A DNA stretch of 64,000 nt from Albugo candida (GCA_040437565.1 JBDOQK010000069.1:62001-126000), one strand, 5' to 3'; numbered from the stretch's first letter, positions 34,069-61,959 are shown. Notes: generated by a model from the letters alone, not told the origin. Program-made: numbers and translations.

Positions 34069-35615
34069 TGTTGAAAATATTCAACAATGTGTTTTAGGTT
34101 TCCAGTCGCACTTGGACTTAGTTTGAACGATTGGTTAGGATTTTGATTTTCTAAGAAATAAAACCTCAGTTTTTGGCAATTTTCCTGGACCACCGCATCT
34201 TCGCTCACCTNNNNNNNNNNNNNNNNNNNNNNNNNNNNNNNNNNNNNNNNNNNNNNNNNNNNNNNNNNNNNNNNNNNNNNNNNNNNNNNNNNNNNNNNNN
34301 NNNNNNNNNNGACGGCTATGGAGTCACCTGTTGCATGAGAAGCTTAGCGATGCAGGTTTCAAACAAAGTCTAACAGACTCATGTTTATATTACGACCAAG
34401 ACACAAAAGTATTTACGGTTCTGGATGTTTATGTCGACGATATACTGATAACGGGGACAAGTTTTTCGAGAAATGAGTCTACATTTGATAGTCTTTCAAG
34501 TCTCTCAATCAAGAATCTCGGACCCGTCAGCATGTTTTTGGGCATGCGAGTTCGCTACAGCGATGAAGACGGATACTATTTGGATCAGGAACCGTCTATA
34601 TGCGAATTAATAACGAAAATGAGAATGGATGAAGCGCATCCGGTTCTCACGCCTATCGGTCGGGACTACAGTGATAGTACAACATCAAAATCGGACTGCT
34701 TGGAGATAAGTTCAGTCAAGAAGCCAACTATCAAGAAGTTCCAGTCTTAGGCTGGCAGTCTTTTGTGGATTGCACGCTGTACGCGTCCAGACATCAGTTT
34801 TGCTGTGCATCAGCTGACGAGACGTACTCATGCACCAACAACAGCCGATTGGGTGTTAGGTGTCAGAGTGGTGAAGTATCTTAAGGGTACTAAAAGTCTG
34901 AAGCTCTATTTGGGTGGTGAAGTATCCACGAATTCCAGAGAAGTCAGTCTGGAAGCGTTTTCGGATGCTGATTGCGCAGCAGATGATGAAACGAGAAACA
35001 GCATATCTGGTACAGCATTTAATTTGAATGGAATGACGATCAGCTGGTCATGCAAGAAGCAGCACTCAGTGGCATTATCGACGATGGAAGCAGAGTTTGT
35101 AGCAGCATCGAAGGCATCGCAGGATTTACTTGGAGCAAAGAAATTATTCAGCGAGTTAAAAGTCAAAGTGAAGGAGCCAATGATCTTGTGGATGGATAAC
35201 CAGGCGGCTATCAGTCAATTTCTCAACGAAGCTACTTCAATCAAGCCAAAACATATCGACGTCCGACTAAAATTCGTCAGAGCTAACATGGTCAGAAAAA
35301 TTATCGCACCAAGGTACGTACATACGTCGAAGATGATAGCCGACTTGCAGACGAAGGCGTTTCCGACGCCAAGATTTCTTGAGCTAAGAGAGTTATGTCA
35401 GTTAAGGGATCGGACAATGCAAGTCGAAGATGACACAACTTCAAGTGCAACCAGAAAGGAAGGAGTGTTGAAAGAACTTAACAATGTGTTTTAGATTTCT
35501 AGTCGCACTTGGAACTTAGTTCAAACGATTGGTCAGGATTTTAAATATCTAAAAAATAAAACCTCAGTTTTTGGCAATTTTCCTGGACCACCGCATCTTC
35601 GCTCACCTGCCAACA
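34069..35615 (+). mobile_element. Ty1/copia element, both LTRs (34069-gap at 34211; 35466-35615), RT/RNaseH; TSD GCCAT
   Basis: TGTTGAAA...CCAACA LTRs; GCCAT at 34064-34068 and 35616-35620; PPT AGAAAGGAAGGAG; YVDDILI, TRPDISFAV, FSDAD, ALSTMEAEF, KHIDVR. Confidence 0.95.
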
Positions 35616-41600: not shown

Positions 41601-41776
41601 CTCTCTCGCCTTTTTTATTTTTTCTACCGACATTACGGATTACACGTCTTCCATCTTTCCGCAACGGACACTTGTTAGACTTGCAACCTTTTTCCTTCTC
41701 TTTCCATATTTTATCATTTTTCGCACTAACTAGCATACCACAGGAAAACCATCGTCAGTATAATGAAACGTAAGTT

Positions 41777-41931
41777 CTCAGTCAAACTCCCCACCTGACG
41801 ATGTCTTCCACGTAGTTCACCCGTACAAAAGCACAGGCTTATATCTAGAACTAGGCACCCGTGAAGATGGCTAGACACTATTTCATGGTATAAGTAAGAC
41901 GACATTAAAAGTAGTGGTATTTCACTGTCGG
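41777..41931 (-). rRNA. 28S (LSU) rRNA gene fragment, domain V, ending at H80/P-loop; diverged
   Basis: Reverse complement reads GTGAAATACCACTACTTTTAATGTCGTCTTACTTAT...GAAGACATCGTCAGGTGGGGAGTTTGACTGAG, matching two conserved eukaryotic LSU blocks with a variable segment between; runs into a gap. Confidence 0.9.
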
Positions 41932-42031
41932 NNNNNNNNNNNNNNNNNNNNNNNNNNNNNNNNNNNNNNNNNNNNNNNNNNNNNNNNNNNNNNNNNNNNN
42001 NNNNNNNNNNNNNNNNNNNNNNNNNNNNNNN

Positions 42032-42619
42032 CAACTTAGTACTTTCAACACCAGTTTCTCAGCGATATGGTTCTCACAATATCCTTCGCGTACTCAACGT
42101 CTACCGCTGCGTCATTCTCCGAACTTTATGGCTTACCCGCAATGACGCTATTTTCAAGCATCAAGTCGCGTGTCCTACCCAACTCTACAGTATTGGAAGG
42201 TGCTACCTTATCGCCCACATGCGTCGACTCAAACAAGTTTCGTGTACCAACATTGGGCTTGTGCTTTGAGTGATTATTGCCTAGCACCCGTCTTACCGAT
42301 GCACTTACCAACGATGATTTCCCCGCACTTAGCGCTGCCACTATAGACTTCGTCAAACTCGACTTCACTAATATCGGATTCGTCACTCTTGCTTCCATCG
42401 ACTTTGCTTTTACCATTTTGGTTTAATCAACATTGGAGTAGCGTGATAGAGAGTACACTACTGTAATCCTTTTGTCATAGGCGACTGGATGGGTGTCACA
42501 ATGGTACCATCACTCAATAAAATGCTGGGGGGTTAGTGCTACCGAACTTACGCGCATAACAGCAGGACGTTGCACCAATAGTATTAGTTATTTTTATTAG
42601 GTGTAATGAAATTTGACAA
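42032..42619 (+). mobile_element. Family Y LINE Y0 (3' end only)
   Basis: YGSHNILRVLNVYRCVILRTLWLTRNDAIF matches Y2 YGTHNILRFLNVFLCIRLRALWLART; ends GTGTAATGAAATTTGACAA. Confidence 0.85.
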
Positions 42620-42636
42620 ACCAGAATTGCCCTCCA
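42620..42636 (-). repeat. 18S rRNA-derived target duplication ACCAGAATTGCCCTCCA
   Basis: 16/17 match to the reverse complement of SSU TGGAGGGCAAGTCTGGT. Confidence 0.8.
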
Positions 42637-45600
42637 GACTTTCGAATTTGCTCTCTAGTATGGAAGTGGCATACACATCGTACTTCTAGGATTCAATCAG
42701 CAACCAGCAATCACGCAGATTTTGCGTGTCTTATCAGCTTTCAGCTACCCATTCCGTCCTCCACACAGTCCTTCCCTTCAGCTCTAGATCAACTTCGTCC
42801 TTCCCATTACCAACTTTCTCAACAGCGGTCTTTACCCTCGGTTTTCTCCTTGGATCTTCCCGTGGACCAGCTTCGAAAAACATGAGTACCGGCCTTTCCT
42901 TCTTCGGAAGAATTCGACCAAACCTTTCCTTCTTTGTTAGAAGCTCAAGTCAGCCTTTCCTTCTACGGAAGCATACAACCAAGCCTTTCCTTCCTCGGTA
43001 GAAGCGCATGTCAGCCTCTCCGTTCTCACGAAAAATTTGAAGTCCTACTTTATCGATCTTTCCTTCTTTGGGGGAAGTAGAAGCCAGTCTTTCCCGTCCT
43101 TTCCTTTTGAGAAAGAACAGTAGAAACCAACCCTCACAATCTTTCCGTTTTCATTTTTACCGTCTTTCGATCCCCCTTTGAATCAGAAGTGCTCCCTGCC
43201 GATTATCGGGTCCAATATGGCACCTAAAACGGCCAAGAACATCCCGTCAAACATTCGAATCGAATGACCCACGGCAAATGTCGGGAAGATAACCCCTAAT
43301 GTGGCAGTCATAATTCCAACGAATCATCTTTTTTTCAAGCTCTTAGCGGTGCATATGACTCTAATGCTTCTGAAGACACCATCAAAGCCCTCGAATTACA
43401 TGAAGTGGACAAATCATCAGTCGACCCAAGCCTAAAGGTCGAGCTTTTCATCCCCGCCCGAAAACTCACAACAATCTTCAGCCTAGAAGATGTTCTCGCT
43501 TCACTACACCGGGAGAACCAAACCGACGTTTGGACAGCTTCACTTCCCCAAGTTTGCGACTTCGTGTGTGTACGAGGTCGCGGCATCAAGTTTCACTGCA
43601 ATGATCGGGACATTGCGATCAAACTTGATGGTTCCGCTATACGCTGCTTGGGCAAGCAGCTTCAATTTAACCATCCCGTAATATGGTGAATGGTACTAGA
43701 TAATTGACCTTCGCAACGTCCCCATTGGTGTTTGTGACGAAGAGATTTTCAATTACTTCAAAACTTTCAACATGCAATTAGGTATTGCACCTTACGTACA
43801 CCAAGGACCCCTTCAATCCCGTGACCGTACTATATGCTTCCGCTTCAAGCAAGCATCCGTAGATTTATTTTCCACCTCAGATCAACCTCTTCAAGAAATA
43901 TCCTTTCCTGGACATGAACATCCGGTGTTTGTTCATCACAAGCACCGAACACTCAGCAAAGTTACCCAACCGTCTCTTGCGGCCAAACAAGCATCAATAA
44001 AGAAGCAATCCAACCATTTCGCCTTGGACACTGTTTCAGCATCACAACAAGCCTCTATGGCCCTCCAAACTACGGCTCCACAAGAGCCACCTATGACTTT
44101 CGTGAAGCCTTCCAATTCTGCATCATGAACGATTAGATTACCGTCTCTCATCAACTTGCCTGTAGGGATCCACCGACCCCTACTGCGGCACAGCACGTCG
44201 ACATTGCGGAAGAGCACCAGGACAATCGCGTCTCATCCGTCTTTATATTAAACACAACAACTCGCGTTTCATCCTTTGGATGATGAAAATGATGGGGAAC
44301 CGATCACTCGCGACATCACGTTGAACAACACATCAGTGCGGGGATATCCCCTTTAATTTTCCGATACGATATCAAGCATGATGAAACGATTTTGTATGCT
44401 GCGATCCCTGNNNNNNNNNNNNNNNNNNNNNNNNNNNNNNNNNNNNNNNNNNNNNNNNNNNNNNNNNNNNNNNNNNNNNNNNNNNNNNNNNNNNNNNNNN
44501 NNNNNNNNNNCACAGCACGTCGACATTGCGGAAGAGCACCAGGACAATCGCGTCTCATCCGTCTTTATATTAAACAAAACAACTCGCGTTTCATCCTTTG
44601 GATGATGAAAATGATGGGGAACCGATCACTCGCGACATCACGTTGAACAACACATCAGTGCGGGGATATCCCCTTTATCCTTCCGATACGATATCAAGCA
44701 TGATGAAACGACTTTGTATGCTGCGATCCCTGAAGTGACATCTCGTCGTACTGGGGTGCGCAGGCATATCAAAAGGACACCAGGCTCTCTTCACTGATGA
44801 AGCGGAACTTGAAACACGATTGGCAATAATTGTGGCTCAACCGTCTGCCATAGCTCCGGCTCTTTTGGAGCCTTACACGACTTTCCAGCCACATCACCGA
44901 ACACGCCGTCATGCGCGCTGCTAGCGCAGCACCGGACAATCCTTTTGGTGGTTCCGACACTCTTATGGACCGACTCCAAAAACGTTATTTGCAGAGATTC
45001 CGCCCCATAGTGCACTACTTGCCGCCATTCTTCCGACTCATGACGATCAACCTACGGCCAATGCTCTCGCATTATTCGACCTTTATCTTCGGTCTTACGC
45101 GGCTTCCATTTATATGGATCCACTTCAGATCGCCACATTGGCAGAGACCCACAATCCAAGTCGGATTTGGCACTCTCACTTTCTACTCCGGGATGATCTC
45201 ACTATAATGGCATTAGCGAGTTCATCTTTTGGTAGTAACCTCATCGAGAAAGCACCCCTCCCCCATCAACATACCTATCGGGGTGGTCGCTTGTATTGCA
45301 TCCAATAACGAGTCAATGGATGAAGCGGGTTCATCTTCCTACGACTCCGATTAAACAACGAACTCTTTGCAGGATCCGTACCGTTAATCAGCTTTGGTTA
45401 CTTAATAGGATCTCCATCAATATCCATGGCCTCAACAACTTTCGCCCCAAGTTATCCCTACCCTCCTTTCACGCTACCAGTTAATCGCACTTCAAGAAAC
45501 ACGATTCAGCAATGACGACGGACCGCCGCAAGAACGATCACTTTATCTCGAGTGTGGATGCTCATGCCCACGCTTATTGGTCATCAACGTCTATCCCAAA

Positions 45601-48600
45601 CGGCTATGTCCGCAAGGGAGTAGAACTTCCTCTGTCTTCTTCTCACCCCTTTGTCCTAGTGACCAACATCACCGACAAACACATCCCAAATCATTCCATG
45701 ATCGACACTTGCTTATGGAAACCTCTCTACAGCATCACCGATTTTGCATCATGTGCTATACACTCCGGTTCAACTTTTAGATCGTACTTCGTTTTACACA
45801 TCCCTCCCTGTGAACTTTCCTACCTACATCCAACGTATCGTCATGAGGGACTTTACCGTCCCATTAGACCCTTTCGTCGATTCCAGCAAATCGATTCATA
45901 GTAAGAATAATACCAATGGACATTGCAGTTGGGCCTTATCGATGCTTGGCGTACAGCGCATCCTACCAGCAAGGAAGACACGGATCCTGGTCGCCAGAAT
46001 CGTCTCGACTACTGCTTCCTCTCGTCCGTGCTGTTTCATGATTACCTCACAAGCATTAGATACGATCATGCCAACAAGTATCAACGTGCCGACCATCTTC
46101 CGGACACACTCCGTCTCCAATATCCAGATTTTCCCAAGCAGTCCAAACTTCCTTGGAAGTGTCCACCTTGTCTATTCAAAATACTGGAGATCGAACAATC
46201 CCTCAAAGCCTTTCTCCGCGTTCAAGTCCGCCTTCGCAATGAAAATTTCGATAATTCTGCGCGCGATATATGACGAACATAAGCGCGATGAATTACGTAA
46301 TCTGCGCTACATGTTTCGCCGCATGACGACAAAGTGTACCGAGGAAGTCCAGCAAGCGAGGAATCGACTCTGCAATCTCAAACATGAAATTGCGACGAAT
46401 CCTTCATCAGTTCGTTCTAGGGAGATAGACACGCTTTTCCATCAGCTTTCGACATTGGAAGAAGTCAGTAGCAAGTCAAGTGCACGGGAGCACTTCGATC
46501 GAGATATCAATCACAGCGAGCGTTCTTCGAAGTTCTTCTTTCGTCCTCCAACACCGATCCTTCGCCGGGTATGCATTCCGTTTATACTACGTGCGGATGG
46601 AACACTTACAACGGAAACCAAGGAAATGCCTCAAGCTCACAACACTTATTGGGCAGATATTTTGCAGTCTCCATCCAAAGAGTATCGTTACACCCAAGGG
46701 AAATACGATACTGAGGCCATGCAAGATCTACTCCAACACACCACAGCATAACTCTCTCCGATTGGTCATGTTTACGTGGATTCCCCTTTCACAGCAAGGG
46801 ATTCTTACTGGGCGATCCGATCGACTGACCGATCCAAAGCACCTGGTTATGACAGACTTCCGATAGAGTACTATCAGCTGTGCTTCCGACTAGGCGCAAG
46901 TGGTGGAACTTGCTCATCCTGCCCAACTCTCAGAGAGTAGAATGACAAAATTTCAATGCCGTGCTTCCATCACCCTTTTCTACAAAAAAGGCGATCGATC
47001 CTAGCAAGTAATTACCGACCTATCACACTATTGAATCATGACGCGAAGCTTGGGCCGAACATACTGGCACATCGATTGAAACGCATCCAACCAAGACTTT
47101 CACATCCCGATCAAAATGGTTCAGGTCAATTCCGATCTATCAGACAAGCCCTAATCTGCTTTCAAGACCTACAAACGCTTTGTCGACAGAAGTTTGCTAC
47201 TGCCTGCGTGGTGTTATTGGACCTCACGAAAGCTTCGACAGCTTTGTATGGCCTGCATTACATATCCTACTTCGACACTTTGGTTTCGACTCGCCTTTCC
47301 GTGCTTGGATCGACATGTTTTACGAACATAACCTCATCACCATCATGGTGAATGGCCATGCAAGCTCTTTCTTTCAGTTAGGCAGAGGATCTCGCCAAGG
47401 CGACCCCCTATTATCGTCACTGATTGTTCTGATTCTAGAACCAATGTTGTGATATCTTCGAGCTACAACAGGACATCTTGGGATACCAGTCCAACATGAT
47501 TCCGACAAGCAACATCTTTCAACTTTTGCTGATGACGTCACTGGTCTTCTTCGTAACATCGATGACACACCAACCTTTTACCGGCATGTCCAGCACAACG
47601 CGTAAGCTGTCGACCTTCAACTCAATACCATCAAGACTCAAGTGATCACCATTCAACCTACTGTCCACCGAAATCTCGACAATACCGAGTATCCAACCTC
47701 ACCGATCCTGGAATCAGTTTCGTTTCTTGGCGTCCTGCAGCATGCCGAGCACGCCACTACACATCGCTTTTCTTTCATTTTTACCGGCCTTTCATTCATG
47801 ACAGCTATTGTGGAAGTTTCAAGCACGTACGTTGCGCAGTAGAGCAGTACTTCTACGTTCTATTGTGCTTCCACTGAGATGGTATCCCGCAACGGTCACC
47901 CCAATACCCACCAACATTGGCTTCAGTTTGAAATCTGTCCAAAGCCTTCCTTTTACAGCAACCCCTCGACCTCACAAAAGCCTTATGCGGCCCGATGGCA
48001 GAATATGAATTGACGAGGCTGACATCACAAGGTAGATTATTATTCCCTTGCCTCAACAGCTTCTCACGTGCAATGCATCTCTATACCTTACGTGATGGTC
48101 TTCGGGAGTGCGCGTCACTTAGATGGTTGATTGCAGCACTACACTGAATCATTACAGCAATAAAAGATACGGGTATTGTATTGAACATGCTTTACTCGCC
48201 AATCCATTTTTTTTACTTGTCCCAACCACGATGGCAATCCCATGGATTGCTTTGGTATTCAATACTACAACAGTGGTATCGACTACTACAAGGCCCAAGT
48301 AACACCACCTCACACGACTTCGTGACTTACAGGCACTACTTTGGCGCCATTACAAAAGGGTTTCTGGTCCTTCAAAGCGTCCATGGTAATATGCATTAAG
48401 CCATTGTCAATGGTTATATCGATATGGTTATCAACAACTCTCTTACATCATCGCCTTACATGGATCACGGCCAACCTCGGTATTGTCAAAGAATCTTTTC
48501 CCCGCCAACATCTTCCATCGAAAACGGAACCAATGGGCAACCGCAAATGTCTTAGCTAGACGCTTTGACGAACTCGTCCTGGTTCATGCCTCCATTCCCC

Positions 48601-49519
48601 ATGGACCCTTTCTCCCGCAACATATCGCCGCCGCCTTTCTACCCTGGAGTTTCAAGGACAAGCGGTTCACCACGCTCCAGAATGCAGACATATATCTACT
48701 CCTTCATGTTTCAGCCGAATAAAGGAATTTACCCCGACAAAGCATTCGAAGAAATAGCGCCTTCAAACTGGCTCCAGATGTGGAAGCCGGAGCGTCATTT
48801 TGACCTTGATGTACTCTCCATTTATTCCGACCTAAGATTTCGATTACAACCCACGGTCTACGACTAGGTCACAAACATTGGTATCATACCCTGGATGTTA
48901 ATTGCGTCTGTCATTGTCCGGCAGTGGAAACGGCAAAGTACTTGTTTTGGTACTGCCCCACACCACATACTGTTTGGGAAGCAGCACTACGCCCACCTCG
49001 ACACCATTTCCAGACACCGCTACAATGGTCTACCGTGCTTTATTGGAGCGCTTTGCACCTCGGCACCGAAGCTGGCACACACAACCTTCTCCGGATAATC
49101 AACGTGATTCGCAGCGCTGTACTCAAGACTTTTTGGAAGGAGCGCAACAACACCGTCTTTCGAACCAACACTGCTACAAACACTCATGACCCCAATAACC
49201 TTGGAATATCGGTCTCTCGACAAGCATCCTATCAAATCAAAGCCCAACTTCAACGACTTCGACGTATCGATGCATTAAACACCCGGCTATTAAGGCTTTG
49301 TGCGCTCTACATCGACACAAGGCAGTCTGCTACTTTTAACATCCCACAACAACAGCTTTATCACCCAACTCCCCAAAGATCCCGTTCTGCGGTTATGTCT
49401 TGCTCCGATCCAGCTCGTGCTTAGCACATACTTTAGGGCAGAGACTCGAAGGATTACTCTCAGTTAAGGGTTGTTAAAGTCAGTATGATACATAAAGAGT
49501 GTAATGAAATCTTTGACAA
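42637..49519 (+). mobile_element. Family Y LINE Y1 (full length, decayed ORF1 from ~43217 and ORF2 to ~49424)
   Basis: ORF1 LFIPARKL...RGRGIKFHC...VFVHHKHR; APE INIHGLN, ALQET, RQNRLDYC; RT NYRPITLLNHDAKLGP, GSRQGDPL, FADDVTG; C-terminal CVCHCPAVETAKYLFWYC. Confidence 0.92.
42890..43100 (+). repeat. ~30-bp-period GCCTTTCCTTC(T/C)T repeats in the Y 5' UTR (also 52855-53030)
   Basis: Copies near 42892, 42923, 42953 and 42983, and several in the Y2 UTR. Confidence 0.7.
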
Positions 49520-49536
49520 ACCAAACTTGCCCTCCA
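49520..49536 (-). repeat. 18S rRNA-derived target duplication ACCAAACTTGCCCTCCA
   Basis: 16/17 match to the SSU antisense motif, at the Y1/Y2 junction. Confidence 0.8.
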
Positions 49537-49926
49537 CTTTTGAAGTTTCTCTCTAGTGAGCAAGTGATTTTCACACAATACTAATAAGAGCCAATCAGCA
49601 ACCCCTCTTCACGCCCAATCTGCGTATTTTTATAGTCTTTCCGACCACCTTCCCAACCTTTCCCAACTTTTTTCCAACCCAGAAGCCCGTCCTTACAAGC
49701 ATTTTGTCTATGGAAGCTTTCGACGCCAGCTTTTCCGGACTTTTCTTCTTTGGAAGCACTCGACACCATTTTATAACCGCCTTCATTCTCCAAGAAACGC
49801 AGCCGCCCACACGTACCAGCCATTCTTTCTTCAAGAGAAAAATCAGCTACACTTTCCCCCGACTTTCCATCCTCAAGAACAGCATCATGCCACCTTACCA
49901 GCCTTACCTTTCCCTGGGGCAAGAAC

Positions 49927-52754: not shown

Positions 52755-54059
52755 AGAACAAGTTCAGCTTCCCTTCCTTTCCTTCCTCAAGAAGAACCAG
52801 CTCACTTTACAAGCATCTTCCCTTTCAATAGAAGAACAAAGCCCTCTTCTACCAGCCTTTCCTTCTTCGGGAGAAGAATCAGTCCATCTTTATCAGCATT
52901 TCCATCTTCGAGAAAGCGAAGTCTGTTTTGACTCGCCTTTCCTTCCTCGGTAGAACCAGAAGTCCGGCTTTATTAGCCTTTCCTTCTTTGGAAACAACAG
53001 AGACCCGGCTTTTTAGCCTTTCCTTCTCTGCAGCAGTCACCTTCAGCCTGTACAAGCCGTTGCTTCTTCGGAAGATGTAGAAGCCCATCCTTATGGCTTC
53101 CACCAAACCGCAGTCTAGTGTCAACACATCTTGGCGCAACAGATTTCGTAACAATCACCCCCATAAAGTCCAATATGTCCCGAATGAAGACGTATTTCAA
53201 TCCATTGAAGATGCCGTAGCATTCAATGCTTCCGCCTCAACCTTTAAAATGCTAGCACTACGGGAAGTACGCAAACCCGCATCGATCTGTGCTACAAATT
53301 CGAAATATCTATTCCGGCCCCAAGGCTAACCACAATATTCCGCCTTGATGAGATGCTACTCTCGCAACATCTTGAAGCACAAACGGCCACTTGGTTATGG
53401 CCTTAGACTCTCATTGCTACTTTGTCATTATCAATGACAAAGGCTTCAAGTCCCCCTATCTGGACAAAACTGTCGCTCAGAAACTTGGCGGCACTGCCGT
53501 CCAATGCATGGGAAAGCACTTTGTGGTTCACCTTTATCGTCGATTTGGTGAATGGTACTTTGTTAAGCTCAACAAAATACCCATGGGTCTACCGAATGAC
53601 TCAATAGTTGATCACTTCCTCCCACTTGGTATTCCATTTTTCGTGACACCAAGCACAAAACCCGGCCTCATAGAATCCCGGGATCGGGTAGTTTGGTTCC
53701 GGTCCAAAACTGCAACAAAAAGGCTTTTTACGACAAGCCAGCAACCTTTACGGAAGATTTACTTCCCTGGCTTACCTGACCCAGTATATGTGCACCACAA
53801 ACATCGTGCATTCAACCAAGTCACCCCTCCCTCCATCATGGCAAAGAAGGCAGCGATCAAAGCCGCTAAAGGCTTCAAAACTTCGACAAACACACTTCGC
53901 CATATCGATCTCACAGCCCCGATCGCTCAAAAAAAAGTCACACCTTCTAACAACATCCCATCCTTGGTTTGCTCCACCATCAAAGACTCCTGCGACGCAT
54001 GGATTCAAGTCTCGAAGGATATATCAACTGCCGTAATCGCACTCCTTCCCCAGCATCAG

Positions 54060-55063
54060 TTGAAGGAGTCTATATTACTAGAGTTAGACTAACTGACTGC
54101 TCTAGCTGCCTAGGCTATCTTAATAACATATATACATATAAAAAAAGGTGAAAGGACTTTGAGAGATGATAATATGTCTTCTCGTTGATAATCCCGAAGC
54201 GCAGTAGCCTCAGCACCCTTAATACGAGACTGTGTCCAGCTTGTAAATGCTGTAAAGTTGTAAAGTTGTGAAAATGGTCCAAAAGTACCGTGGGTTTGCA
54301 TATTGGTGTGCGCCACACTACGGTGAGCATAACCAGCCAACTAGGACTAGGATCTGACTTGCACTTGCATTTTGACTTGTCTGGGCCGTACGCGCAGTAA
54401 TGATCTTCGGCTTCTGAAAAATCCACCAAATGATCCTTGCTTTACGAGTTGATCCAGCATCTTAGCAAGCCGACTGCGTTCGTCTTGGTCGTAACACTGT
54501 CTTCGAAAGTACCGAACGTGCGCACTAAACGTGGTGTAGATCACGGAAAGTGCTGGAACTGTCGGAGTTGCTGATCGATGATCGAATAAACGACGATTCC
54601 GATCTGTCCAGACGAAGTGCAGTGTCACNNNNNNNNNNNNNNNNNNNNNNNNNNNNNNNNNNNNNNNNNNNNNNNNNNNNNNNNNNNNNNNNNNNNNNNN
54701 NNNNNNNNNNNNNNNNNNNNNNNNNNNNCCGTGTGATCGCACTCTAGAAAGAGATGTTGATCGGATTCCACTGCCCCACACGAAGGCTGCGTGCACAATA
54801 TAATGTCGGACTGAATATCCTTCAAGAACCAGAAACGAGATCGAACTGGCAACATCCGAAAGGCTAGACGAAACTGTAAATCCTCGAAAATTGGTAATAC
54901 ACGTTTTCGAAGATGCCGTGATGTAGCCATAAAAGTTTGAACTCGTTCTGAATCCAGTGTTTCCGATCTCTCCCGTGATGACGAATACGTCGACATTGGA
55001 TGACTTGGTCGGTTCGGGAGGTTTCCAGACGATTGGTGAGAGTTGTGAGCGTGGAATAAATAG
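54060..55063 (-). mobile_element. 5'-truncated family A LINE with 16-bp TSD CCTTCCCCAGCATCAG
   Basis: TSD at 54044-54059 and 55064-55079; LQFRLAFRMLPV...CTQPSCGAVESDQHLFLEC; 3' UTR shared with 4050-4366; host ORF1 resumes after 55079. Confidence 0.92.
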
Positions 55064-58000
55064 CCTTCCCCAGCATCAGAGGAGATTACCATACCTCCCT
55101 GTGCGGACGACAAAGACTCGTTCTTCGACATACCATTTACCACAAGCAACTATCAGCTCGCCTTCTCCCCACTTGAAGACGATGCTGGGCACGATATTAT
55201 TTTCATCGTAAAGAGACACAGCGGTGTTGTCCGCAGCAACCCGTTATATCCCAATGAGCCAATCGCTCGGATGTTGGAGGAACAATGCCTCCATAAAGCA
55301 CCGATGAAATCGGTCTCGAAAAGTGCTCGGCGAAAGCACATCAAGGCGACTCAAGTCACTTTTCTGAGTCTTGGGGACCCGGAAACTCGTCTTGCGGCTA
55401 TCGCTGCGCAACCTTTCATTATTGCCCCGGTCTTCATGACTCCCAATTTTGAAAAAAATGCCATGTTGCGCGACTAATAAATTTTGCGGGCAATCAGCTT
55501 CGCCCCGAACAATACTCATGGAGACGCCTTCAGTTTCGTTAGTCGACTTCATCATTACTATGGAGAATATATGACATTAGGGAAGGTTCGTTTTCATTCT
55601 CTTTCCCTGATGAAGAGACTCAAACACTTGCTTTAGCACTGGTAATGTTTGATCTATACCTTCGTGCCTATGGTGCGTCTATATATATGGTTCCCCTAAG
55701 CGTTGGGGCTTTGCTCTCACAAACTCAACCATCTTTTATCCAGCAAAGCCTCTTCTTACTATGGGATGATAGCGTACTTATGACTTTTGCCGCATCAGAG
55801 TTAGGCTCTTCTCAGCTAACGACCGCACCAACATATGTGGTCGACATTTGTAGTCTCCTCCACTACACCTTTTCATGCTCGGGAGAACATATGGAGGAAT
55901 CCAGTAACTCTTCTGGCATGGATCTCCCGGCCCTTTCCGACTGACAGTCGACTCTACCTCATCACCTTCTCCTTGCCTTTAAACAGCCTTGGTCATTCTC
56001 GGATCTTTTACTCAATGTGAACGGCCTGAATCATGTTAACCCGGTTTTTTATCGCAAACTTCTGCCTCAACATCAACTTGTTGCTCTTCAAGAAACCAGT
56101 TTAAGTACTTAAGACAGCCGACACAGTAATACCGACTTCATTAACACCGTGGACTCAGGCGCGAAGACGTTTTACTTTTCTTTGGACAGTCCTCATGGCG
56201 TGGGCCGCAATGGAGTGGCCTTGGTTCTACCATCAAATCATCCCTTTGGAGCCTTACTCAGCATTACTTTGCAAATAAATTCCACGCACCAATCACAGCC
56301 CCTACCTTTTGATCGAGACCTCTTTGAACCGACAACGAAATGGATTCATGTGATTTGTGCACCAGCAGAATTCGCGGCAAGGAATTCCTTCTTCGCTTCT
56401 CTTCCCAGCAATATTCCAGACGGTATTCAACACACTGTCTCCGTGGACTTCAACATCCCCTTTGATCCTATTTTGAATTCCTGCACAAGTTCTACGCATA
56501 CATCGACTTCCACGGTATTGCAACAGGGGGCTTTACACTCAGGCCTTGTCGATGCTTGGAGATCAACCTACCCAACATTCCAGGAATTTACCGGACCAAG
56601 GCGCCGTAATCGCATCACCTACTGCTTCATGTCTTCCAATCTTTTTACACCACCCCGTTCCTATCAAACATGACCTTACTACCCAATACTATCTCGTGGA
56701 TCACTTTCCTGTCATTTTCCGATTACAACATGCTTCCTACCCAGCTTGTTCGCGCCTTCCCTGGAATTTCCCTACTTGGCTATTAAAATTCCCTTTAGTC
56801 CATGAAGCTTTGAAAACTCCTCTTCTCGACCTTACGAACCGAGTACGATTTGTAGAAGAAGACAACCCAGGCGCATTGTTTTATGAACACACGCGTTCCG
56901 AACTTGGCATCAATTCCGAGCCATTAAAACTCACAAGCAGCACCAACTTACCCGTCTCCGCAGTGCCTACCAGACTGCCGCTCAACTTGCCACTCAGGTA
57001 GAGAAGCTTCTTCTTCCTATCGAACTTAACGAGGGAGAAACCCGCCGAAAAACGGTTGGTTCCTGGCATCACTTCGACCATATCATTCGACACAGTGAGA
57101 AAGCCACCAAATCTTTCCTTCGACAGCCTACTCCTGTATTACGCCAAGTTTGCATCCCATCAACACAACATAACGATGGATCTCACGCTACAACAGATAA
57201 AATGGCTTCATATCAGCCTGGTTATTGGGCACAGCTTTTTCAATCGCTTTCCACAGAATACTCTTCCAAAATGCGTTATCGCAAACATGACCCCATAGAG
57301 CTAAGCTCTCTCCTTCAACATACGACACAAACACATACCGAACAAGATAGAGCATACCTCGATGCATCATTTACGGCCAGCGAATTTTACTGGGCAATCA
57401 AGACATGACTACGGAACAAAACTCCCGGATATGATTGCCTTCCAGTTGGATATTATCAACTTTCCATATCAACTTGGGCACAAGTCTTTGAGTTAATTTA
57501 CTCCGCACAGTTTTCGATAGGACGAATGACCAAGTTCCAACGCCGCGCCACTGTTACTCTTCTCTATAAGAAGGGTGACAGAAGCCTTCCCAGCAACTAC
57601 CGCCCTATCACTCTACTCAATCATGACGCAAAGCTCGGTCCCAAGATTCTCACTAATCGCCTTAGCAAAATCCTGCCAAAGCTACTCCACACCGATCAAA
57701 GTGGCTTTGTTCAGGGCCGATTAATTCGCCATACACTAGTGCGGTTTCAAGACATCCAACAACTTTGCCAGCAACGGTTCCCTCATGCTGGTGCTATATT
57801 ACTAGACTTCGCCAAGGCTTTTGACAGTGTGTTGTGGCCGGCACTTCACACTATCTTAACCCATTATGACTTTGGAGCTAATTTTCGCTCATGGATCAAG
57901 ACATTTTATCAAGATAAATTGATCGCTGTCATGGTCAATGGCAGTGCAAGCAAGTTTTTTCTACTCGGAAGCGGGGTTCGCCAAGGTGATCCCCTTTCAC

Positions 58001-60299
58001 CTTCACTCTTTGTGCTCTTCCTGGAACCCTTCATGAAATTATCTCCACGCATCAACAGGACACCCTGGCATCCCGGTACAACGGTCATCAGCAGCTCACC
58101 ACCCTACAGCATTTGCAGACGATTGCAACGGTTTCCTCAATCAATTTATGGCCTCGGTTAAGCATTACCCACAAGCTACTGGACTCCAATTCAATGAATC
58201 CAAAACTATTTGGTTTTCAAACGCCCTCCCCTAACTTTGTGGCTTTCTTGATATTACTCCCTCGCCCCTTTTCTGCGGCAGTCCCCAAGGTCACCTTTCT
58301 AGGTGTATAACTATACCAATACCTCAACCTTTCTCACTGCTTTCCTTTCCTACTCACCAAGCTTTCAGCTCGACTAGTGGTGTGGCAATATCGGGGAAGA
58401 ACACTCCTTGGGTGCGCGGTGATCTTACGGTCTATCGTTCTACCTCTTCTCTGGTACCCTGCGCCAGTAACACCAATACCCTCACCCATTGTCGACTCGG
58501 TATGGGAGTTATTCAAAACTTTCCTCTATCAACGGCCGATAGATCTTGATAGTGCTACCAATAGCGCAATGCATTCGAACTGGATTACTCTAACAACAGC
58601 ACTTGGTGGCTTGGGCTTACCTTGTTTATAGAGTTTCTCTGGGGCAATGCACCTTTGCCTCCTTAGGGACGGTATCAAGGATTGCTTAATCTGTAAAACC
58701 CCTTCATGGTTCCTACCTGCGATTCAGCTAATGACCGATTGGTAAGGGCGACTTGATTTTTTCACCCATCAACCTTTTAACTATCCGCAATCTCGAGGGT
58801 CTTACATTGGTCTCCTTTGGTATGCAACTTTCCAACACTAGCCACATATTCTACCGATACATTACGAGCACCTATCTGGCGACACTAGAAGCGAATTTAA
58901 GGACCAAACAAGTGGCCAATGTAACATGCCAGTATTCGTACACAGCTTTTTTTACAGTAATGGATACCAACATTTTTCCAGCTTTATCGGTCGCTTCGGT
59001 TCCTTGCCCACTCACAATATCCTCACAATCGTTCTCCCCAGCAATGCCTTCCAGTGGCGAAGGGATTTCATGGCTACTATTCACATCTTCACCAAAACCT
59101 TCAGGTGATCAATAGAGGCATCACTATCAAACATGGCCCCTTCCTTCCTCAGCATGACGCTGCGACCTTTGTTCTATGGTCTTTTAAAGACGCCCCCTTT
59201 ATTCACCTTACCAACCGAAGGCTCTATCATATGTTGCATCAACTACCAAAAACAGTGGTGCTTCCCGATAAAGCTTTGAAAGTTATCCCGCCAACACAAT
59301 CGAATTCTATGTGGAAGAGCAAAGGCACCCTCAACAGAGATGTTCTCCCTAAAGTTCCGCATCCAATACAATGGCTTACGTCTTCGATTCAAATATCGCT
59401 TTCATACCTCTCACGTCCTATTCTCCCTTGGTTGTAATTCCCTCGAAACAGTCAAAAGTTCTTCTGGGAGTGTTCCCGGGCTACAAATTTATGGTTCACT
59501 CTCTCTTCCCCATATTTGGCTGTCTAGAAGAAACCCTCACGTGGGACACTGTAGTCTATGGCCCCAACTTTGCCCTTACAATATCAGCAACCAGGAATTA
59601 TGGTACACACAATATCCTTCGCTTCCTTAACGTTTTTCTTTGTATCAGACTCAGAGCATTATGGCTCGCGCGCACTGCAGCTATCTTTCAGCACCGGGAA
59701 GAATGCCCTACGCATTCTGATCATACCACACGTTGCTACATTCGGGCTCATATTTAGCGCGCGAAGTACCTATCGCCTACAAACGCTTAGCTTATGGCCT
59801 ATGTGAAGTTTGTCTTCATCGAAATTTCACTCAGTCCGTTCATCACTGCGTTCCTCCTATGCATTATTCACTACATCCTATGGTGCGGCACTCCTTACTA
59901 CTTTTCCAACAATTTCGCTCAAGTCTAGACTTCAGCATCACTGTGTTCTTCTCCCGTATCTCCGACTCTATCTATCCTGCCCCTATCCTGGATTACATCC
60001 TTGGCGACTTTATACGCTCAAGTTTTGGCCTTGAGCACAGTTTATCTTTGATCACAATTGCCCGTGGCCTTTGCATCCTTGCGTCAACTTTTCTGCCACT
60101 TCGCCTCATCAACTTTCAAATCTGCAAACTAGGATTGACTATGTGGACCACCCTTCTGTTTTCTTTACGTCATAAGAGATAGCTTCAAGCGTCAGTTATA
60201 GCCCCAATATACAAGTATGTTGGAGCAATACACTTCACAAGCCTTAGTTATTCCCTCCTTAAATAGATTGTTTTTAAACAGTGTAATGAGATGTTAAAA

Positions 60300-60317
60300 A
60301 TCAGACTTGCCCTCCAA
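60300..60317 (-). repeat. 18S rRNA-derived target duplication ATCAGACTTGCCCTCCAA
   Basis: 17/18 match to SSU antisense ACCAGACTTGCCCTCCAA, at the Y2/Y3 junction. Confidence 0.85.
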
Positions 60318-61850
60318 GGGTTCCGCCCAGCTCAATCGGTTGAGCACACGGATCCCCTGCTGGAGATCGTCAGTTTGATCTCCGGCACTGTGTGCAGCGG
60401 TTTGGCAAAGTTGTAGCGGACTTTATAAGCCGAGTGGTCGAGAACGATTGAATCGGTTTGAGGACTGGTCGGAACTGAGCTGTCTGCTAAATTGAGGGGA
60501 TGAGGGTGCTACGGAAAGCCAAATAAGGTTGAAGGTGGTTGGATTGTTGCGATAAAGTCGCTCTTGATGTGGTGCAGTGTGAAAAGCACTGGTGCACTAA
60601 ACTACCTTCTTCATCCTATTATGAGCCCCTGACCGTGTGGTTATCAGTTGAGTCTGACTTCAAAACTAGGGAGGCAGATATTTTTCAAGCTCATTGCTTG
60701 AAACCCTTGCCAGTCTTCGCAAAACCTCATTTCCACCTTATTGGTGAAACTCAGCTTAGCTTTCTCTCATTGCCGGAACCCTTTCTCACCAACCATCCTA
60801 GTTGGAGCCTCTATTTTCAGTAGAGAACCTTTTTTTGTGATTCTTATAAGTGATTATACAAGGGATAAAATGGCTCCAGCAAAGTCCAATGTGGACAGAG
60901 CATGGCGCAAAACATTCCGCCAATCCAACCCGCAACATTACGTTATGTATCCAGCGATGATCTCTTCCAGGCTATTGAGGATGCGGTTGCGTCCAGCGCA
61001 TCGCCTGACACCTTCCGCATGCTTACATTACAGGAGTTGCAAGATTCAGGTATCGATTCTTGTGAGAAGATCGCCATGTTCATTCCAGCCCCGAGGTTGA
61101 TGGCGACGCTTCGCCTCGACGAAATTCTTCTCTCGCTCCATTAGAAAGCACAAACAGCCACTTGGAGAATGGTGTTAGGCTCACTGTGCGACTTTGTGAG
61201 CATCAGAAACCGCAGGCTTAAGTTCCACTCCCTCGACGAGGTGGTGGCTCAGAAACATGGCGGCGCAGCATTGATAGGCATGAGAAAATAATTTCTCGTG
61301 TAACCATACCGCCGCTTTGGCGACTGGTACTTTGTGGAACTAAACAAGGTACCTATAAGTCTATCTGATGACGCGATAGCGGGCTACTTTGAGCCCATAG
61401 GCATACCCACCATGCTCACTCTTAGCATCAAACACGGGGTAATCGACTCCAGGGATAGACACGTTTAATTTCGGTCAAAAATTGCCCCGGTCCAGCTTTT
61501 CTACATGGACCATCAACCTCTTCGGGAGATCTCCTTTCCTGGTTTTCCAGATCAGGTTTATGTCCACCACAAACATAGAGCATACAATCGAGTTACGCCG
61601 TCTTCGATAGTGGCGAAGAAGGAAGCGGCAAAAGCTGCAAAAAGGTTCAACCGTCCAAGAATACCCTTCGACACATCGAATTCAGTCCTCCACCTCGCGC
61701 AGAATCTATCACTCTTGTGCCCGAACCATCTTTGTAGCGCCTCACTCACTGCCACAGATCCCTTTGATACGTGGTCTCACGTATCGAATCAAATCAACTG
61801 CCGACAACCACGGCCACTTCCGCAGGCAAACTGGTGGAATAGTGACATGC
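60318..61850 (+). mobile_element. Family Y LINE Y3 (5' region and ORF1 from 60870; truncated)
   Basis: MAPAKSNVDRAWRKTFRQSNP...DDLFQAIEDAVAS...VYVHHKHRAYNRVTP, homologous to Y2 ORF1. Confidence 0.85.
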
Positions 61851-61959
61851 AAAGAAGAAGAGGCGGCCTTCTTCGATTAACCCGTCACCCCGACCGGCTA
61901 TCAGCTTGCTTTCTCGCAAGTGGAAGCCGACGAATGACACGACATCACTTGCGTGATCA

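What the first reader, a model, noticed from the sequence alone, without database searches (positions are those of the whole stretch)
42032..61850. Sister LINE family arrayed at an 18S rRNA site beside the 530 loop
Seen: four family Y copies lie head-to-tail, separated by ACCAGAATTGCCCTCCA, ACCAAACTTGCCCTCCA and ATCAGACTTGCCCTCCA. Each carries a different single mismatch, so the consensus is ACCAGACTTGCCCTCCA. Established: this is the reverse complement of SSU TGGAGGGCAAGTCTGGT, which runs into the universal GTGCCAGCAGCCGCGG (helix 18). Inference: a second rDNA-specific family targets 18S in antisense orientation with a ~17-bp TSD. 18S-targeting LINEs are rare. No extended 18S flank is visible in this window, so support rests on the three 17-mers.
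Basis: partly seen in the sequence, partly recalled or inferred. Interest (0 to 1): 0.9.

Follow-up and report, generated by a model that had tools for sequence, protein, structure and literature searches.

The report
Dead 18S-targeting LINE array, oomycete
A row of decayed jumping genes (LINEs) in an oomycete genome is spaced by a 17-base piece of the small-subunit ribosomal RNA gene, the footprint of an element that repeatedly inserted, backwards, at one spot of that gene; this habit is known from insects but is not reported for oomycetes in the papers searched.

Summary
Three 17-mers (42620, 49520, 60300), each one mismatch from ACCAGACTTGCCCTCCA, separate head-to-tail LINE copies on the + strand; none is expected by chance. 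The consensus is the exact reverse complement of 18S nt ~547-563, found in 4 of 4 Rfam-verified eukaryotic SSU genes.

- The related family X in the same window has the same build: a shared 3' motif, an 18-nt rDNA spacer and a shared 5' motif. One X spacer runs on into 146 nt of real 28S (Rfam E 2e-15), also antisense.
- At the third Y junction the 18S likeness extends about 10 nt further (8/10; 18 of 5000 shuffles).
- The spacers are far better kept than the elements, which argues for repeated independent insertion rather than duplication.
- The pattern matches Drosophila R1 arrays, which are spaced by the target-site duplication.

All copies are dead and single-copy. No long Y-18S junction was seen, and no whole genome was available. 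Relatives are oomycete LINEs; the best ORF1 hit is a source-named Albugo candida protein. I rate it a new variant of a known kind, of moderate interest.

The parts
42032..42619 (+). Y1: 3' tail of a Y copy (C-terminal ORF2 remnant and 3' UTR). The rest is hidden in the N gap 41932-42031.
   Evidence: tblastn with P0004 aa 1246-1319 maps at 42033-42251. The 3' motif GTGTAATGAAAT lies at 42601. A contig loose end shows element sequence continuing into the gap (X15 at 42032).
42620..42636 (+). 17-mer 1, ACCAGAATTGCCCTCCA. It matches the reverse complement of 18S nt ~547-563 at 16 of 17 positions. Inferred target-site duplication.
42637..49519 (+). Y2: full-length decayed unit. 5' UTR about 42637-43257 with internal ~61-bp repeats; ORF1 remnant about 43258-45083 (N gap 44411-44510); ORF2 remnant (APE-RT-CCHC) 45416-49376; 3' UTR to 49519.
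   Evidence: 10 in-HSP stops
49520..49536 (+). 17-mer 2, ACCAAACTTGCCCTCCA (16 of 17).
49537..60299 (+). Y3: full-length decayed unit with two foreign insertions. ORF1 at 53093-54058 and 55055-55656; ORF2 at 56011-59823, including an open 250-aa RT piece at 57409-58161.
   Evidence: (RVT_1, E 7.8e-23); 9 in-HSP stops
49926..52754 (-). Copia-type LTR retrotransposon remnant inserted in the Y3 5' UTR, bounded by 164-bp direct repeats (49926-50089 and 52591-52754, 93% identical).
   Evidence: RVT_2 at 51120-51683 on the - strand, E 1.8e-35
54059..55054 (.). Very high-copy repeat inserted in the Y3 ORF1. It is not part of Y.
   Evidence: Read depth is about 2000 per direction against about 6-8 baseline. 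The ORF1 homology to P0121 is split at 54058 and 55055. Similar pieces lie at 4047-4366 and 1800-2064.
60300..60316 (+). 17-mer 3, ATCAGACTTGCCCTCCA (16 of 17).
60317..60326 (+). About 10 further nt that still resemble 18S (reverse complement). Together with 17-mer 3 they match the flank of reference L098 at 24 of 27 positions (my count by eye).
   Evidence: 8 of 10 anchored matches, reached by 18 of 5000 shuffles; the same test at junctions 1 and 2 gives 3 of 10. Searches give the alignments.
60318..60600 (+). Z: a G-rich 283-bp segment, repeated elsewhere in the genome, between 17-mer 3 and the recognisable Y4. It is either a variant Y 5' UTR or foreign sequence. Unexplained.
   Evidence: Depth in bin 60192-60855 is about 12 times baseline; a joint at 60600 is seen in 306 reads. 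No other copy in the window. Not a tRNA. Not 18S as a whole.
60871..61966 (+). Y4: ORF1 remnant of a fourth Y copy, cut off by a Copia-type element (gag at 62158-62856).
   Evidence: P0121 aa 22-368, 48-54% identity; Retrotran_gag_2
32492..41776 (+). Context: a full-length decayed copy of the related family X (copy XA). It is preceded by an X 3' fragment and an X spacer at 32474-32491.
41777..41931 (-). Context: an X spacer running on into a genuine 28S rRNA fragment (antisense to X), cut by the N gap.
   Evidence: Rfam LSU_rRNA_eukarya model positions 2483-2620, 64.6 bits, E 2.3e-15. 1586 reads continue upstream into uninserted 28S, and contigs continue the 28S into the gap.

Best explanation
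Family Y is (or was) a site-specific, APE-endonuclease-type LINE of an oomycete. It inserts at one position of the 18S rRNA gene, beside the 530 loop and about nt 563/564 in yeast numbering, in the orientation opposite to rRNA transcription.

Inferred mechanism.
1. The element's endonuclease nicks the rRNA-sense strand just 3' of ...GCAAGTCTGGT.
2. That 3' end primes reverse transcription of the Y RNA. The RNA has no poly(A) and ends in a conserved TGTAATGA...ACAA motif.
3. The other strand is cut about 17 nt away, so each insertion is flanked by a 16-17-bp duplication of 18S nt ~547-563.
4. The upstream duplicate still carries the target, so later Y elements insert into it. This builds a head-to-tail array whose members are separated by exactly the duplication, as described for R1 in Drosophila.

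Being antisense, Y cannot ride on the Pol I transcript. It must use its own promoter, probably in the conserved 5' terminus ACTTTCGAATTTGCTCTCTAGTG and the ~550-730-nt 5' UTR.

The array in this window is a fossil. It is a single-copy, rearranged pseudo-rDNA locus that also holds arrays of the 28S-targeting family X. All copies are riddled with stops and pierced by other transposons.

Shown: the 17-mers, their identity to 18S, the orientation, the parallel X architecture with a real 28S flank, and the decay. Inferred: the nick positions, the TSD nature of the spacer, re-insertion as the origin of the array, and the promoter.
For: 1. Three of 3 Y-Y junctions carry the 17-mer, and none is expected by chance. 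A contig of run X4 shows a further junction in which the end of the 17-mer is followed, after 7 other letters, by Y2-type 5' UTR (table 5c).
2. The consensus is exact in 4 of 4 Rfam-verified SSU genes at nt 517-571 and is followed there by GCCAGCAGCCGCGG. It equals yeast 18S 547-563 in PMC3940700 Table 1 and lies within primer NS31.
3. Family X has the same build in an alignment of all 7 junctions: a shared 3' motif, a 17-18-nt rDNA spacer, and a shared 5' terminus ACTTTC[CG]AAT...CTC.CT.GTG. The X spacer occurs 4 times against 0.10 expected. Once it continues into 146 nt of 28S, antisense. 1586 reads show the uninserted gene across that exact point.
4. Along the + strand the order is X array, then 28S (reverse complement), then a gap, then the Y array. 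This is the order and orientation expected of one rDNA unit read backwards.
5. At junction 3 the 18S likeness runs about 10 nt further: 8 of 10, reached by 18 of 5000 shuffles, against 3 of 10 at the other two junctions. This fits variable top-strand cleavage.
6. The spacers differ pairwise at 2 of 17 positions, whereas the elements are 65% identical at best and mostly unalignable. My rough arithmetic: about 6% decay in situ (3 changes in 51 nt) predicts about 9 stops in ORF2, and 9-10 are seen. Most of the divergence between copies therefore predates insertion, which implies independent insertions by different Y sublineages at one site.
7. [quoted passage not shown] APE-type endonucleases of site-specific LINEs recognise about 10 bp around the cut (PMC1919474, passages).
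8. Relatives carry an APE domain (PF03372), RT (PF00078) and a weak zf-RVT match.
Against: - No junction of Y with a long stretch of 18S was seen. Rfam finds no SSU fragment in the window. BLAST with four complete 18S genes hits only the three 17-mers.
- The left end of the array lies in an N gap, and the right end is cut off by a Copia element.
- The 10-nt extension at junction 3 is short. The longer likeness (32-48 nt) exists with only one of 21 reference flanks, L119. That reference is a divergent eukaryote unrelated to this genome, and without it the signal disappears (1932 of 2000 shuffles reach it).
- The X and Y target sites match at 10 of 17 positions, but 2149 of 20000 shuffles do as well. 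This gives no support for related specificity.
- No junction was found in other collections: 0 of the 80 loci kept from the metagenome scan carry the motif, and the prokaryote genome collection gave 0 matches. Those loci are only distant relatives, so this says little.
- No intact Y ORF2 was found (best hit 65% identity, other genera).
- The loose-end table was truncated (1409 rows not shown), so junction reads could not be inspected.
- The 17-mer could in principle be carried by the element itself.
Confidence: 0.78

Rival explanations
1. The 17-mer is part of the element, not a target duplication. On this reading Y carries an 18S-derived tag at its 3' end, for example acquired by read-through from an ancestral rDNA copy. 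The tag may help it anneal to a target. The head-to-tail row then arose by insertion next to, or into the ends of, earlier copies anywhere in the genome, and Y need not be strictly 18S-specific.
For: In the window the motif is seen only directly behind Y 3' ends. The adjoining 3' and 5' terminal motifs are also conserved, so conservation alone does not separate a TSD from an element terminus. No long 18S flank is seen.
Against: In family X, which has the same build, the equivalent spacer is demonstrably continuous with the flanking 28S. At junction 3 the likeness to 18S continues about 10 nt beyond the 17-mer, which a fixed tag would not do. A tag that exactly equals a universally conserved 18S block would still imply an rDNA association.
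Confidence: 0.12
2. There was one ancient insertion, and the unit [Y + 17-mer] was later amplified by tandem or segmental duplication (unequal crossing-over). The copies then diverged in place, so there was no repeated targeting.
For: The locus is rearranged: it holds inverted X arrays, a junction at about 31710/31761 where X copies of opposite orientation meet, and many gaps. Drosophila melanogaster has R1 arrays of this amplified kind (footnote to Table 2 of PMC2718515).
Against: Duplicated units should show the same divergence in the spacer as in the element. Here the spacers differ at 2 of 17 positions pairwise, whereas the elements are at most 65% identical where alignable and 38% identical in ORF2 protein. 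Y4 has a different sequence between the 17-mer and ORF1. In the tree, the X copies of one array fall into two subclades, one of which also holds a database protein, P0029.
Confidence: 0.06
3. Chance resemblance or an assembly artefact. On this reading the 17-mers are scaffolding or collapse artefacts in a repeat-rich, gap-ridden scaffold, or a random motif that happens to match 18S.
For: The window has 13 N gaps, several flanked by duplicated sequence. At junction 2 the listed contigs of two runs stop at 49521.
Against: Zero of 100 shuffles give even one match. My arithmetic: a given 17-mer matches some position of about 11 kb of rDNA strands with probability about 6e-7. Junctions 1 and 3 are spanned by contigs of independent runs at single-copy depth.
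Confidence: 0.02

Closest known systems
R1 elements of Drosophila, including their tandem arrays (Stage and Eickbush 2009, PMC2718515; passages of sections 13 and 18 read)
   Same: Both are two-ORF LINEs with an APE-type endonuclease and a fixed rDNA insertion site. Both form head-to-tail arrays whose members are separated by exactly the target-site duplication, explained by re-insertion into the upstream TSD. In both, first-strand cleavage is rigid and second-strand cleavage variable.
   Different: The target is 18S, not 28S. The spacer is 16-17 bp, not 14 bp. The host is an oomycete, not an arthropod. The insertion is antisense to the rRNA; that R1 is in sense orientation is my recall and was not checked. 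The relatives are L1/Tx1-like rather than R1-clade (inferred). There is no poly(A).
R7Ag, the 18S rDNA-specific LINE of Anopheles (named in PMC6530143, passage read; that it belongs to the R1 clade is my recall)
   Same: It is an APE-type LINE specific for the 18S gene.
   Different: The host kingdom differs. I did not retrieve its exact 18S site or its orientation, so identity of site cannot be judged. Y's nearest relatives are oomycete LINEs.
R8 of Hydra, an R2-lineage element in 18S (PMC5035012, passages read)
   Same: It inserts in 18S rRNA genes.
   Different: R8 belongs to the R2 group, which has a single ORF and a restriction-like endonuclease. Y has two ORFs, and its relatives carry an APE domain.
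Tx1 clade of target-specific APE LINEs, such as Tx1L, Keno and Mutsu (PMC4640811 and PMC1919474, passages read)
   Same: These are APE-type, strictly target-specific elements that insert in multicopy RNA genes. The more distant relatives of Y carry zf-RVT (PF13966), as L1/Tx1-type elements do. P0004 and P0029 have weak zf-RVT hits.
   Different: No Tx1 reference sequence was available here, so clade membership is untested. Keno is said to be absent outside animals (PMC4640811, passage). I know of no Tx1-clade element in 18S or 28S (recall).
Family X of the same window (28S-targeting)
   Same: It shares the terminal motifs, the spacer length (18 against 17 nt), the antisense orientation, the array habit and the state of decay.
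   Different: The target is different: 28S just 3' of Rfam LSU model position 2620. The lineage is different: X groups with P0029, P0020 and the P. infestans proteins P0022/P0023, while Y groups with P0002, P0004, P0006, P0010, P0012 and P0016. X has a near-intact relative in the database: P0029 is 72-85% identical to X1 across the RT and the region behind it.

Membership tests
rDNA site-specific LINE ('R element' in the functional sense) | Independent copies sit at one identical position of an rRNA gene. | tested here: met
   Three of 3 Y junctions carry the same 17 nt of 18S, and the copies are far more diverged than the spacers. Only one locus could be examined.
rDNA site-specific LINE ('R element' in the functional sense) | The flanks continue into the rRNA gene on both sides. 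| tested here: inconclusive
   For Y there is only a ~10-nt extension at junction 3 and no SSU fragment by Rfam or BLAST. For the related family X, 146 nt of 28S is present on the 3' side.
rDNA site-specific LINE ('R element' in the functional sense) | Uninserted rRNA genes with a single copy of the target exist in the same genome. | tested here: inconclusive
   This is shown for the X site in 28S (1586 reads). The 18S of this organism was not recovered.
APE-type (two-ORF) LINE | ORF1 plus an ORF2 with an N-terminal APE endonuclease, an RT and a C-terminal Cys/His motif. | tested here: met
   Remnants lie in the right order. RVT_1 is found in Y3. The intact relatives P0004 and P0010 have PF03372 and PF00078. 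C1192, C1196, H1204 and C1209 are invariant in alignment A1. The Y endonuclease piece itself gives no Pfam hit.
Tx1 clade | Phylogenetic placement of the RT with Tx1L, Keno or Mutsu reference sequences. | not testable with these tools
   No named Tx1 reference could be fetched. There are only hints: zf-RVT in distant relatives, with coral and frog hits.
R1 clade (R1, R7) | Phylogenetic placement of the RT with R1-clade references. | not tested
   No reference sequences were available. The nearest relatives are all oomycete LINEs, followed by zf-RVT-bearing LINEs.
R2 group (R2, R8, R9) | A single ORF with a restriction-like endonuclease C-terminal to the RT. | tested here: not met
   Y has two ORFs, and its relatives have an N-terminal APE domain.
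TSD-spaced tandem array (R1 type) | Neighbouring full-length copies are separated by exactly one copy of the target duplication and nothing else. | tested here: met
   This holds at junctions 1 and 2 (3' motif, 17-mer, 5' motif). At junction 3 the 17-mer is followed by about 10 more 18S-like nt and then by a different 5' region.

The most novel reading that the evidence does not exclude
Oomycetes harbour two old, separately evolving lineages of L1/Tx1-like LINEs. Each has kept a strict, antisense insertion site in the ribosomal genes since before the peronosporalean genera split: X in 28S domain V and Y in 18S next to the 530 loop. Living members would still occupy a fraction of rDNA units today. 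This would be the first family of APE-type rDNA-specific LINEs outside animals, and one that must drive its own transcription against the Pol I direction.
Probability: 0.3. Interest if true: 0.7.

Novelty: new variant of a known kind. Interest (0 to 1): 0.55.

Why it matters
Site-specific rDNA LINEs (R1, R2 and their kin) are the main models for how retrotransposons pick targets, and R2 is now being used for programmable gene insertion. Almost all known cases are from animals; the R1 and R2 passages I read describe 28S insertions, and that they lie in sense orientation is my recall.

An oomycete pair of lineages that hit 18S and 28S in antisense would do three things. It would widen the taxonomic and mechanistic range of such elements. 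It would give a natural experiment on how an APE endonuclease changes its target. And it would point to an element-borne promoter that works inside rDNA chromatin.

For oomycete genomics it also explains a class of 'Pol-like' gene models and flags pseudo-rDNA graveyards in assemblies.

I found no report of rDNA-specific LINEs in oomycetes in the open-access library. The 2024 MBE review of rDNA-TE associations (PMC10946416) has 0 occurrences of 'oomycet' or 'stramenopil'. Repbase and subscription journals were not searchable, and supplements were closed.

Tried and rejected
- Rfam on the whole window (gathering and E up to 10) and on 91-nt and 27-nt stretches round 17-mer 3 gave no SSU hit. The 17-mer is too short for a covariance model. 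The whole-window scans also missed the 146-nt 28S piece that a short-range scan found.
- The 17-mer occurs in IMG/VR in 4 contigs. These are one unrelated sequence, not rRNA, so this is a chance match.
- The metagenome scan with an alignment of 17 relatives kept 80 loci, all distant LINEs (23-41% identity). None has the Y or X spacer. The viral-contig scan gave no relative. A junction pattern in the prokaryote genome collection gave 0 matches.
- Read laying confirmed the 28S context and single-copy depth. Its loose-end list was truncated, so no reads at the 17-mers could be inspected.
- I tested whether Z (60318-60600) is 18S. The global alignment is not above shuffles, so this is rejected.
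- I considered Z as a tRNA-derived SINE head. ARAGORN found no tRNA, and the whole-window Rfam scan and the scan of 60270-60360 gave no tRNA hit there, so it is unsupported.
- I considered a decayed second 17-mer after Z (8 of 17 by eye). This is not above chance and was dropped.
- The X and Y target likeness (10 of 17) is not significant (2149 of 20000 shuffles).
- The likeness of the junction-3 flank to reference L119 (2 of 2000 shuffles) is treated as unexplained. L119 is a divergent eukaryote, and the signal vanishes without it.
- The IQ-TREE run did not finish, so FastTree was used. The genome search for control rRNA failed.

Full report
OBSERVATION

The three 17-mers are real and unique. 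Searching ACCAGACTTGCCCTCCA on both strands with up to 3 mismatches finds exactly three sites: 42620-42636, 49520-49536 and 60300-60316. Each has a single, different mismatch. At up to 2 mismatches none of 100 dinucleotide-preserving shuffles produced any match. At up to 3 mismatches the shuffles gave a mean of 0.14 matches and at most 1.

The surrounding DNA is a set of decayed LINE copies on the + strand. Stop-to-stop ORFs and tblastn with an intact relative (P0004, 1351 aa) map an APE-like N-terminus, an RT and a C-terminal region in the right order at 45416-49376 (Y2) and 56011-59823 (Y3). A C-terminal piece lies at 42033-42251 (Y1). ORF1 homology is present in Y2, Y3 and Y4 only.

Each 17-mer is preceded by GTGTAATGARAT plus 8-13 nt, with no poly(A). 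The first two are followed by the motif CTTTYGAAKTTKCTCTCTAGT, whose only two occurrences in the window are these.

The units are as follows.
- Y1 is a 588-bp tail (42032-42619) behind an N gap.
- Y2 is 42637-49519 (6,883 bp).
- Y3 is 49537-60299. It is swollen by two insertions. One is a Copia-type LTR element at 49926-52754, with 164-bp flanking repeats and RVT_2. The other is a very high-copy repeat at about 54059-55054 that splits ORF1.
- Y4 is an ORF1 remnant from about 60871 to 61966. It is cut off by another Copia-type element, whose gag lies at 62158-62856.

The copies are dead and old. They are 65-67% nt identical in the few alignable stretches. Y2 and Y3 share 38% aa identity in ORF2 and 52% in the RT. 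Each has 9-10 in-frame stops.

Contigs from independent sequencing runs, at single-copy depth, span junction 1 (three runs) and junction 3 (one run). At junction 2 the listed contigs of two runs end at 49521.

IS THE 17-MER 18S?

Yes.
- PMC3940700 (Table 1, passages read) lists yeast 18S positions 547-589 as TGGAGGGCAAGTCTGGTGCCAGCAGCCGCGGTAATTCCAGCTC. This is one of the best conserved blocks of eukaryotic 18S.
- Primer NS31 is TTGGAGGGCAAGTCTGGTGCC (PMC5584815).
- 163 papers in the library hold the 16-mer.
- As a tool-based check, I scanned the prokaryote genome collection for the 38-mer and obtained 45 contigs of contaminating eukaryotic rDNA. Rfam confirmed complete SSU_rRNA_eukarya genes in the four I tested (L092, L094, L105, L119). 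In all four the reverse complement of the 17-mer consensus is exact, at SSU nt 517-571, and is followed by GCCAGCAGCCGCGGTAATTCC.

The Y ORFs are on the + strand, and the + strand carries the reverse complement of 18S. Y therefore lies antisense to the rRNA gene.

THE KEY CONTEXT: FAMILY X

The left half of the window holds a related LINE family, X, in both orientations. Its copies are separated by CCCAGCCAAACTCCC(C/G)AC. This occurs four times (22521 on -, 29478 on -, 32474 on +, and 41777 on + with 2 mismatches), against 0.10 expected.

Aligning all seven X and Y junctions shows one architecture:
- a 3' motif T(G/A)TAATG.AA;
- about 8-13 nt more;
- a 17-18-nt spacer;
- a 5' terminus ACTTTC(C/G)AAT..CTC.CT.GTG.

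Behind copy XA (32492-41776, + strand) the spacer does not meet another element. It runs on into real 28S. Window 41786-41931 on the - strand matches Rfam LSU_rRNA_eukarya model positions 2483-2620 with 64.6 bits and E 2.3e-15.

Raw reads of a 2026 run confirm this. That bin has a depth of about 240 per direction, against about 6-8 elsewhere. 1586 reads arrive at 41779 from ...CTAACAGATGTGCCGCCC, which is the uninserted 28S gene. Contigs continue the 28S beyond 41931 into the gap.

So X is demonstrably a 28S-inserted, antisense LINE whose arrays are spaced by an 18-nt piece of the target. Y is its structural twin with an 18S piece.

Along the + strand the order is X array, then 28S (reverse complement, model positions 2620 down to 2483), then an N gap, then the Y array. 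That is the order and orientation expected if the scaffold is one degenerate rDNA unit read backwards. The N gaps are of unknown size, so this is consistent with that reading rather than proof of it.

IS THERE ANY 18S BEYOND THE 17-MER?

BLAST of four complete 18S genes against the window hits nothing but the three 17-mers. At junction 3, however, the match runs on: 23 nt at 91% with L094 and L105, and 32 nt at 90.6% (E 7e-5) with L119.

In an anchored, ungapped test, the 10 nt right of 17-mer 3 (60317-60326) match the best of 21 distinct reference flanks at 8 of 10 positions. Only 18 of 5000 shuffles reach this. The same test at junctions 1 and 2, where the Y 5' terminus follows, gives 3 of 10.

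The longer likeness depends on L119 alone. Two of 2000 shuffles reach it with L119 included; without L119, 1932 of 2000 do. L119 is a divergent eukaryote unrelated to this genome. I therefore count only the ~10-nt extension.

The extension fits the re-insertion model with a variable second-strand cut. An older insertion (Y4) would have made a longer duplication. Y3 would later have entered its upstream copy with the usual 17-nt stagger.

The distance from the 17-mer to the ORF1 start supports this. It is 554 nt in Y4, against 621 nt in Y2 and 727 nt in Y3 after removing the Copia element. That suggests 60317-60870 is a variant Y 5' UTR.

Its first 283 nt (Z, 60318-60600) remain unexplained.
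- Z is G-rich.
- Its bin has about 12 times the baseline depth.
- In 306 reads Z is joined at 60600, in inverted orientation, to a sequence like 49459-49492.
- It has no other copy in the window.
- It is neither a tRNA nor 18S as a whole.

REPEATED INSERTION OR DUPLICATION?

The three spacers differ from each other at 2 of 17 positions, and together show 3 changes in 51 nt. The elements beside them are mostly unalignable at the DNA level.

My rough arithmetic runs as follows. About 6% neutral decay over about 3.6 kb gives about 216 changes. About 4% of these create stops, which gives about 9 stops. The 9-10 stops seen in Y2 and Y3 match this. Most of the divergence between copies would then predate insertion, meaning that different Y sublineages each found the same 17 bp.

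This matches what Stage and Eickbush reported for R1. [quoted passage not shown] First-strand cleavage was rigid and second-strand cleavage flexible (PMC2718515, sections 13 and 18, passages read).

WHAT KIND OF LINE, AND WHOSE?

The open RT piece of Y3 finds 1534 proteins. The best are 56-65% identical 'Pol-like' proteins of Globisporangium, Peronospora and Phytophthora; Peronosclerospora, Aphanomyces and Albugo follow lower down. Then come zf-RVT-bearing LINEs of animals and metagenomes at about 35-45%.

The intact relatives P0004 and P0010 carry PF03372 (APE) and PF00078 (RT). P0004 and P0029 have weak zf-RVT hits.

A FastTree of 36 rows puts Y2+Y3 beside P0002 (Peronospora farinosa), P0004, P0006, P0010, P0012 and P0016. 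The four X copies group with P0029, inside a group with P0020 and the P. infestans proteins P0022/P0023. The caveats are long branches, pasted and decayed rows, and X3 only 45% filled. X and Y are thus two separate lineages that predate the split of these genera.

P0029 is 72-85% identical to X1 across the RT and the region behind it, so X probably has intact members. For Y the closest ORF2 is 65% identical. An open 498-aa ORF1 homologue (P0121, named Albugo candida by its source) is 75% identical to the Y3 ORF1.

The window's DNA is held by 20 runs from 13 studies, many with contig sets of about 33-36 Mb or labelled plant metagenome. I infer an oomycete, probably a white-rust species.

Membership in the Tx1 or R1 clade could not be tested, because no named references were available. 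Membership in the R2 group is excluded by the two ORFs and the N-terminal APE.

MECHANISM (INFERRED)

1. The endonuclease nicks the rRNA-sense strand between about nt 563 and 564 (...GTCTGGT | GCCAGC...).
2. Target-primed reverse transcription starts from the conserved, A-poor 3' end of the Y RNA.
3. The second nick falls 16-17 nt away, in CCTCC|A on the element-sense strand.
4. Junction 1 has an extra G before the 5' terminus, and junction 2 shows one shared base.

APE endonucleases of site-specific LINEs are known to read about 10 bp around the cut (PMC1919474, passages).

The X and Y targets share 10 of 17 bases when aligned from CCAG. That is not significant, because 2149 of 20000 shuffles do as well.

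Antisense insertion rules out co-transcription with the pre-rRNA. The conserved 5' terminus shared by X and Y is therefore my candidate for an internal promoter or initiator.

NOVELTY AND VERDICT

The kind is known: a site-specific APE LINE in rDNA, forming arrays spaced by the TSD. The host group, the 18S site beside the 530 loop, the antisense orientation and the pairing with a 28S-targeting lineage appear to be new.

Five literature searches and the 2024 review of rDNA-TE associations (0 mentions of oomycetes or stramenopiles) gave no prior report. Repbase, subscription journals and supplements could not be searched.

The known 18S-specific LINEs named in the passages I read are R7Ag (PMC6530143) and R8 (PMC5035012). 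I did not retrieve their exact sites.

The novelty is 'new variant of a known kind' and the interest is moderate (0.55). The missing piece is a long Y-18S junction.

Noticed in passing
window 9500-32491 (mostly - strand) and 31761-41931 (+ strand): Family X is a second decayed LINE family, arranged in arrays in both orientations. Its copies are spaced by CCCAGCCAAACTCCC(C/G)AC, the reverse complement of 28S just 3' of Rfam LSU model position 2620. One spacer runs into 146 nt of real 28S at 41786-41931. A near-intact relative exists in the protein database: P0029, 72-85% identical to copy X1 across the RT and the region behind it.
   Followed up: yes
window 54056-55058; similar pieces at 4047-4366 and 1800-2064: A very high-copy repeat is inserted in the Y3 ORF1. 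Read depth is about 2000 per direction against about 6-8 baseline, which is higher than the 28S bin. It holds a short LINE C-terminal likeness on the - strand (P0004 aa 1162-1214).
   Followed up: partly
window 60318-60600: Z is a G-rich 283-bp segment directly behind the third 17-mer, in a bin at about 12 times baseline read depth. In 306 reads its right end (60600) is joined, in inverted orientation, to a sequence like 49459-49492 (the Y2 3' UTR). Its nature is unexplained.
   Followed up: partly
window 60317-60364 compared with locus L119 (SSU nt 484-531): The 48 nt behind the third 17-mer (in 18S sense) resemble the helix-17 region of one divergent eukaryotic 18S, L119 (2 of 2000 shuffles reach this). 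They do not resemble the other 20 reference flanks. L119's LSU is unlike the window's 28S piece, so relatedness does not explain it.
   Followed up: partly
window 22575-22874 and 23148-23447; 5605-5895 and 5996-6286; 44189-44410 and 44511-44732: Identical or near-identical sequence is repeated on both sides of 100-N gaps. These look like scaffolding artefacts: the same reads placed on both gap edges. There are 13 N gaps in the window.
   Followed up: no
window 4677-4751 (+): A tRNA-Ile (anticodon AAT) lies here. It is the only Rfam hit in the whole-window scans.
   Followed up: no
window 10000-32000 and 32000-60000: There is strong strand asymmetry. The sense strand of both LINE families is C-rich and G-poor (GC skew -0.2 to -0.35 on the sense strand), so the skew flips where the element orientation flips.
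   Followed up: no
window 49926-52754 (-) and 62158-64000 (+): Copia-type LTR retrotransposon remnants (RVT_2 and Retrotran_gag_2) are inserted into Y3 and behind Y4. Contigs of three runs also show forms that skip about 3.0-3.1 kb at 49734/49839 to 52850/52855. These come from an empty site or from paralogous Y 5' UTRs.
   Followed up: partly
loci L085-L129: At least 45 contigs filed under bacterial genomes or MAGs in the prokaryote genome collection carry eukaryotic 18S sequence. Four were checked, and all held full rRNA genes. This is contamination of those assemblies.
   Followed up: partly
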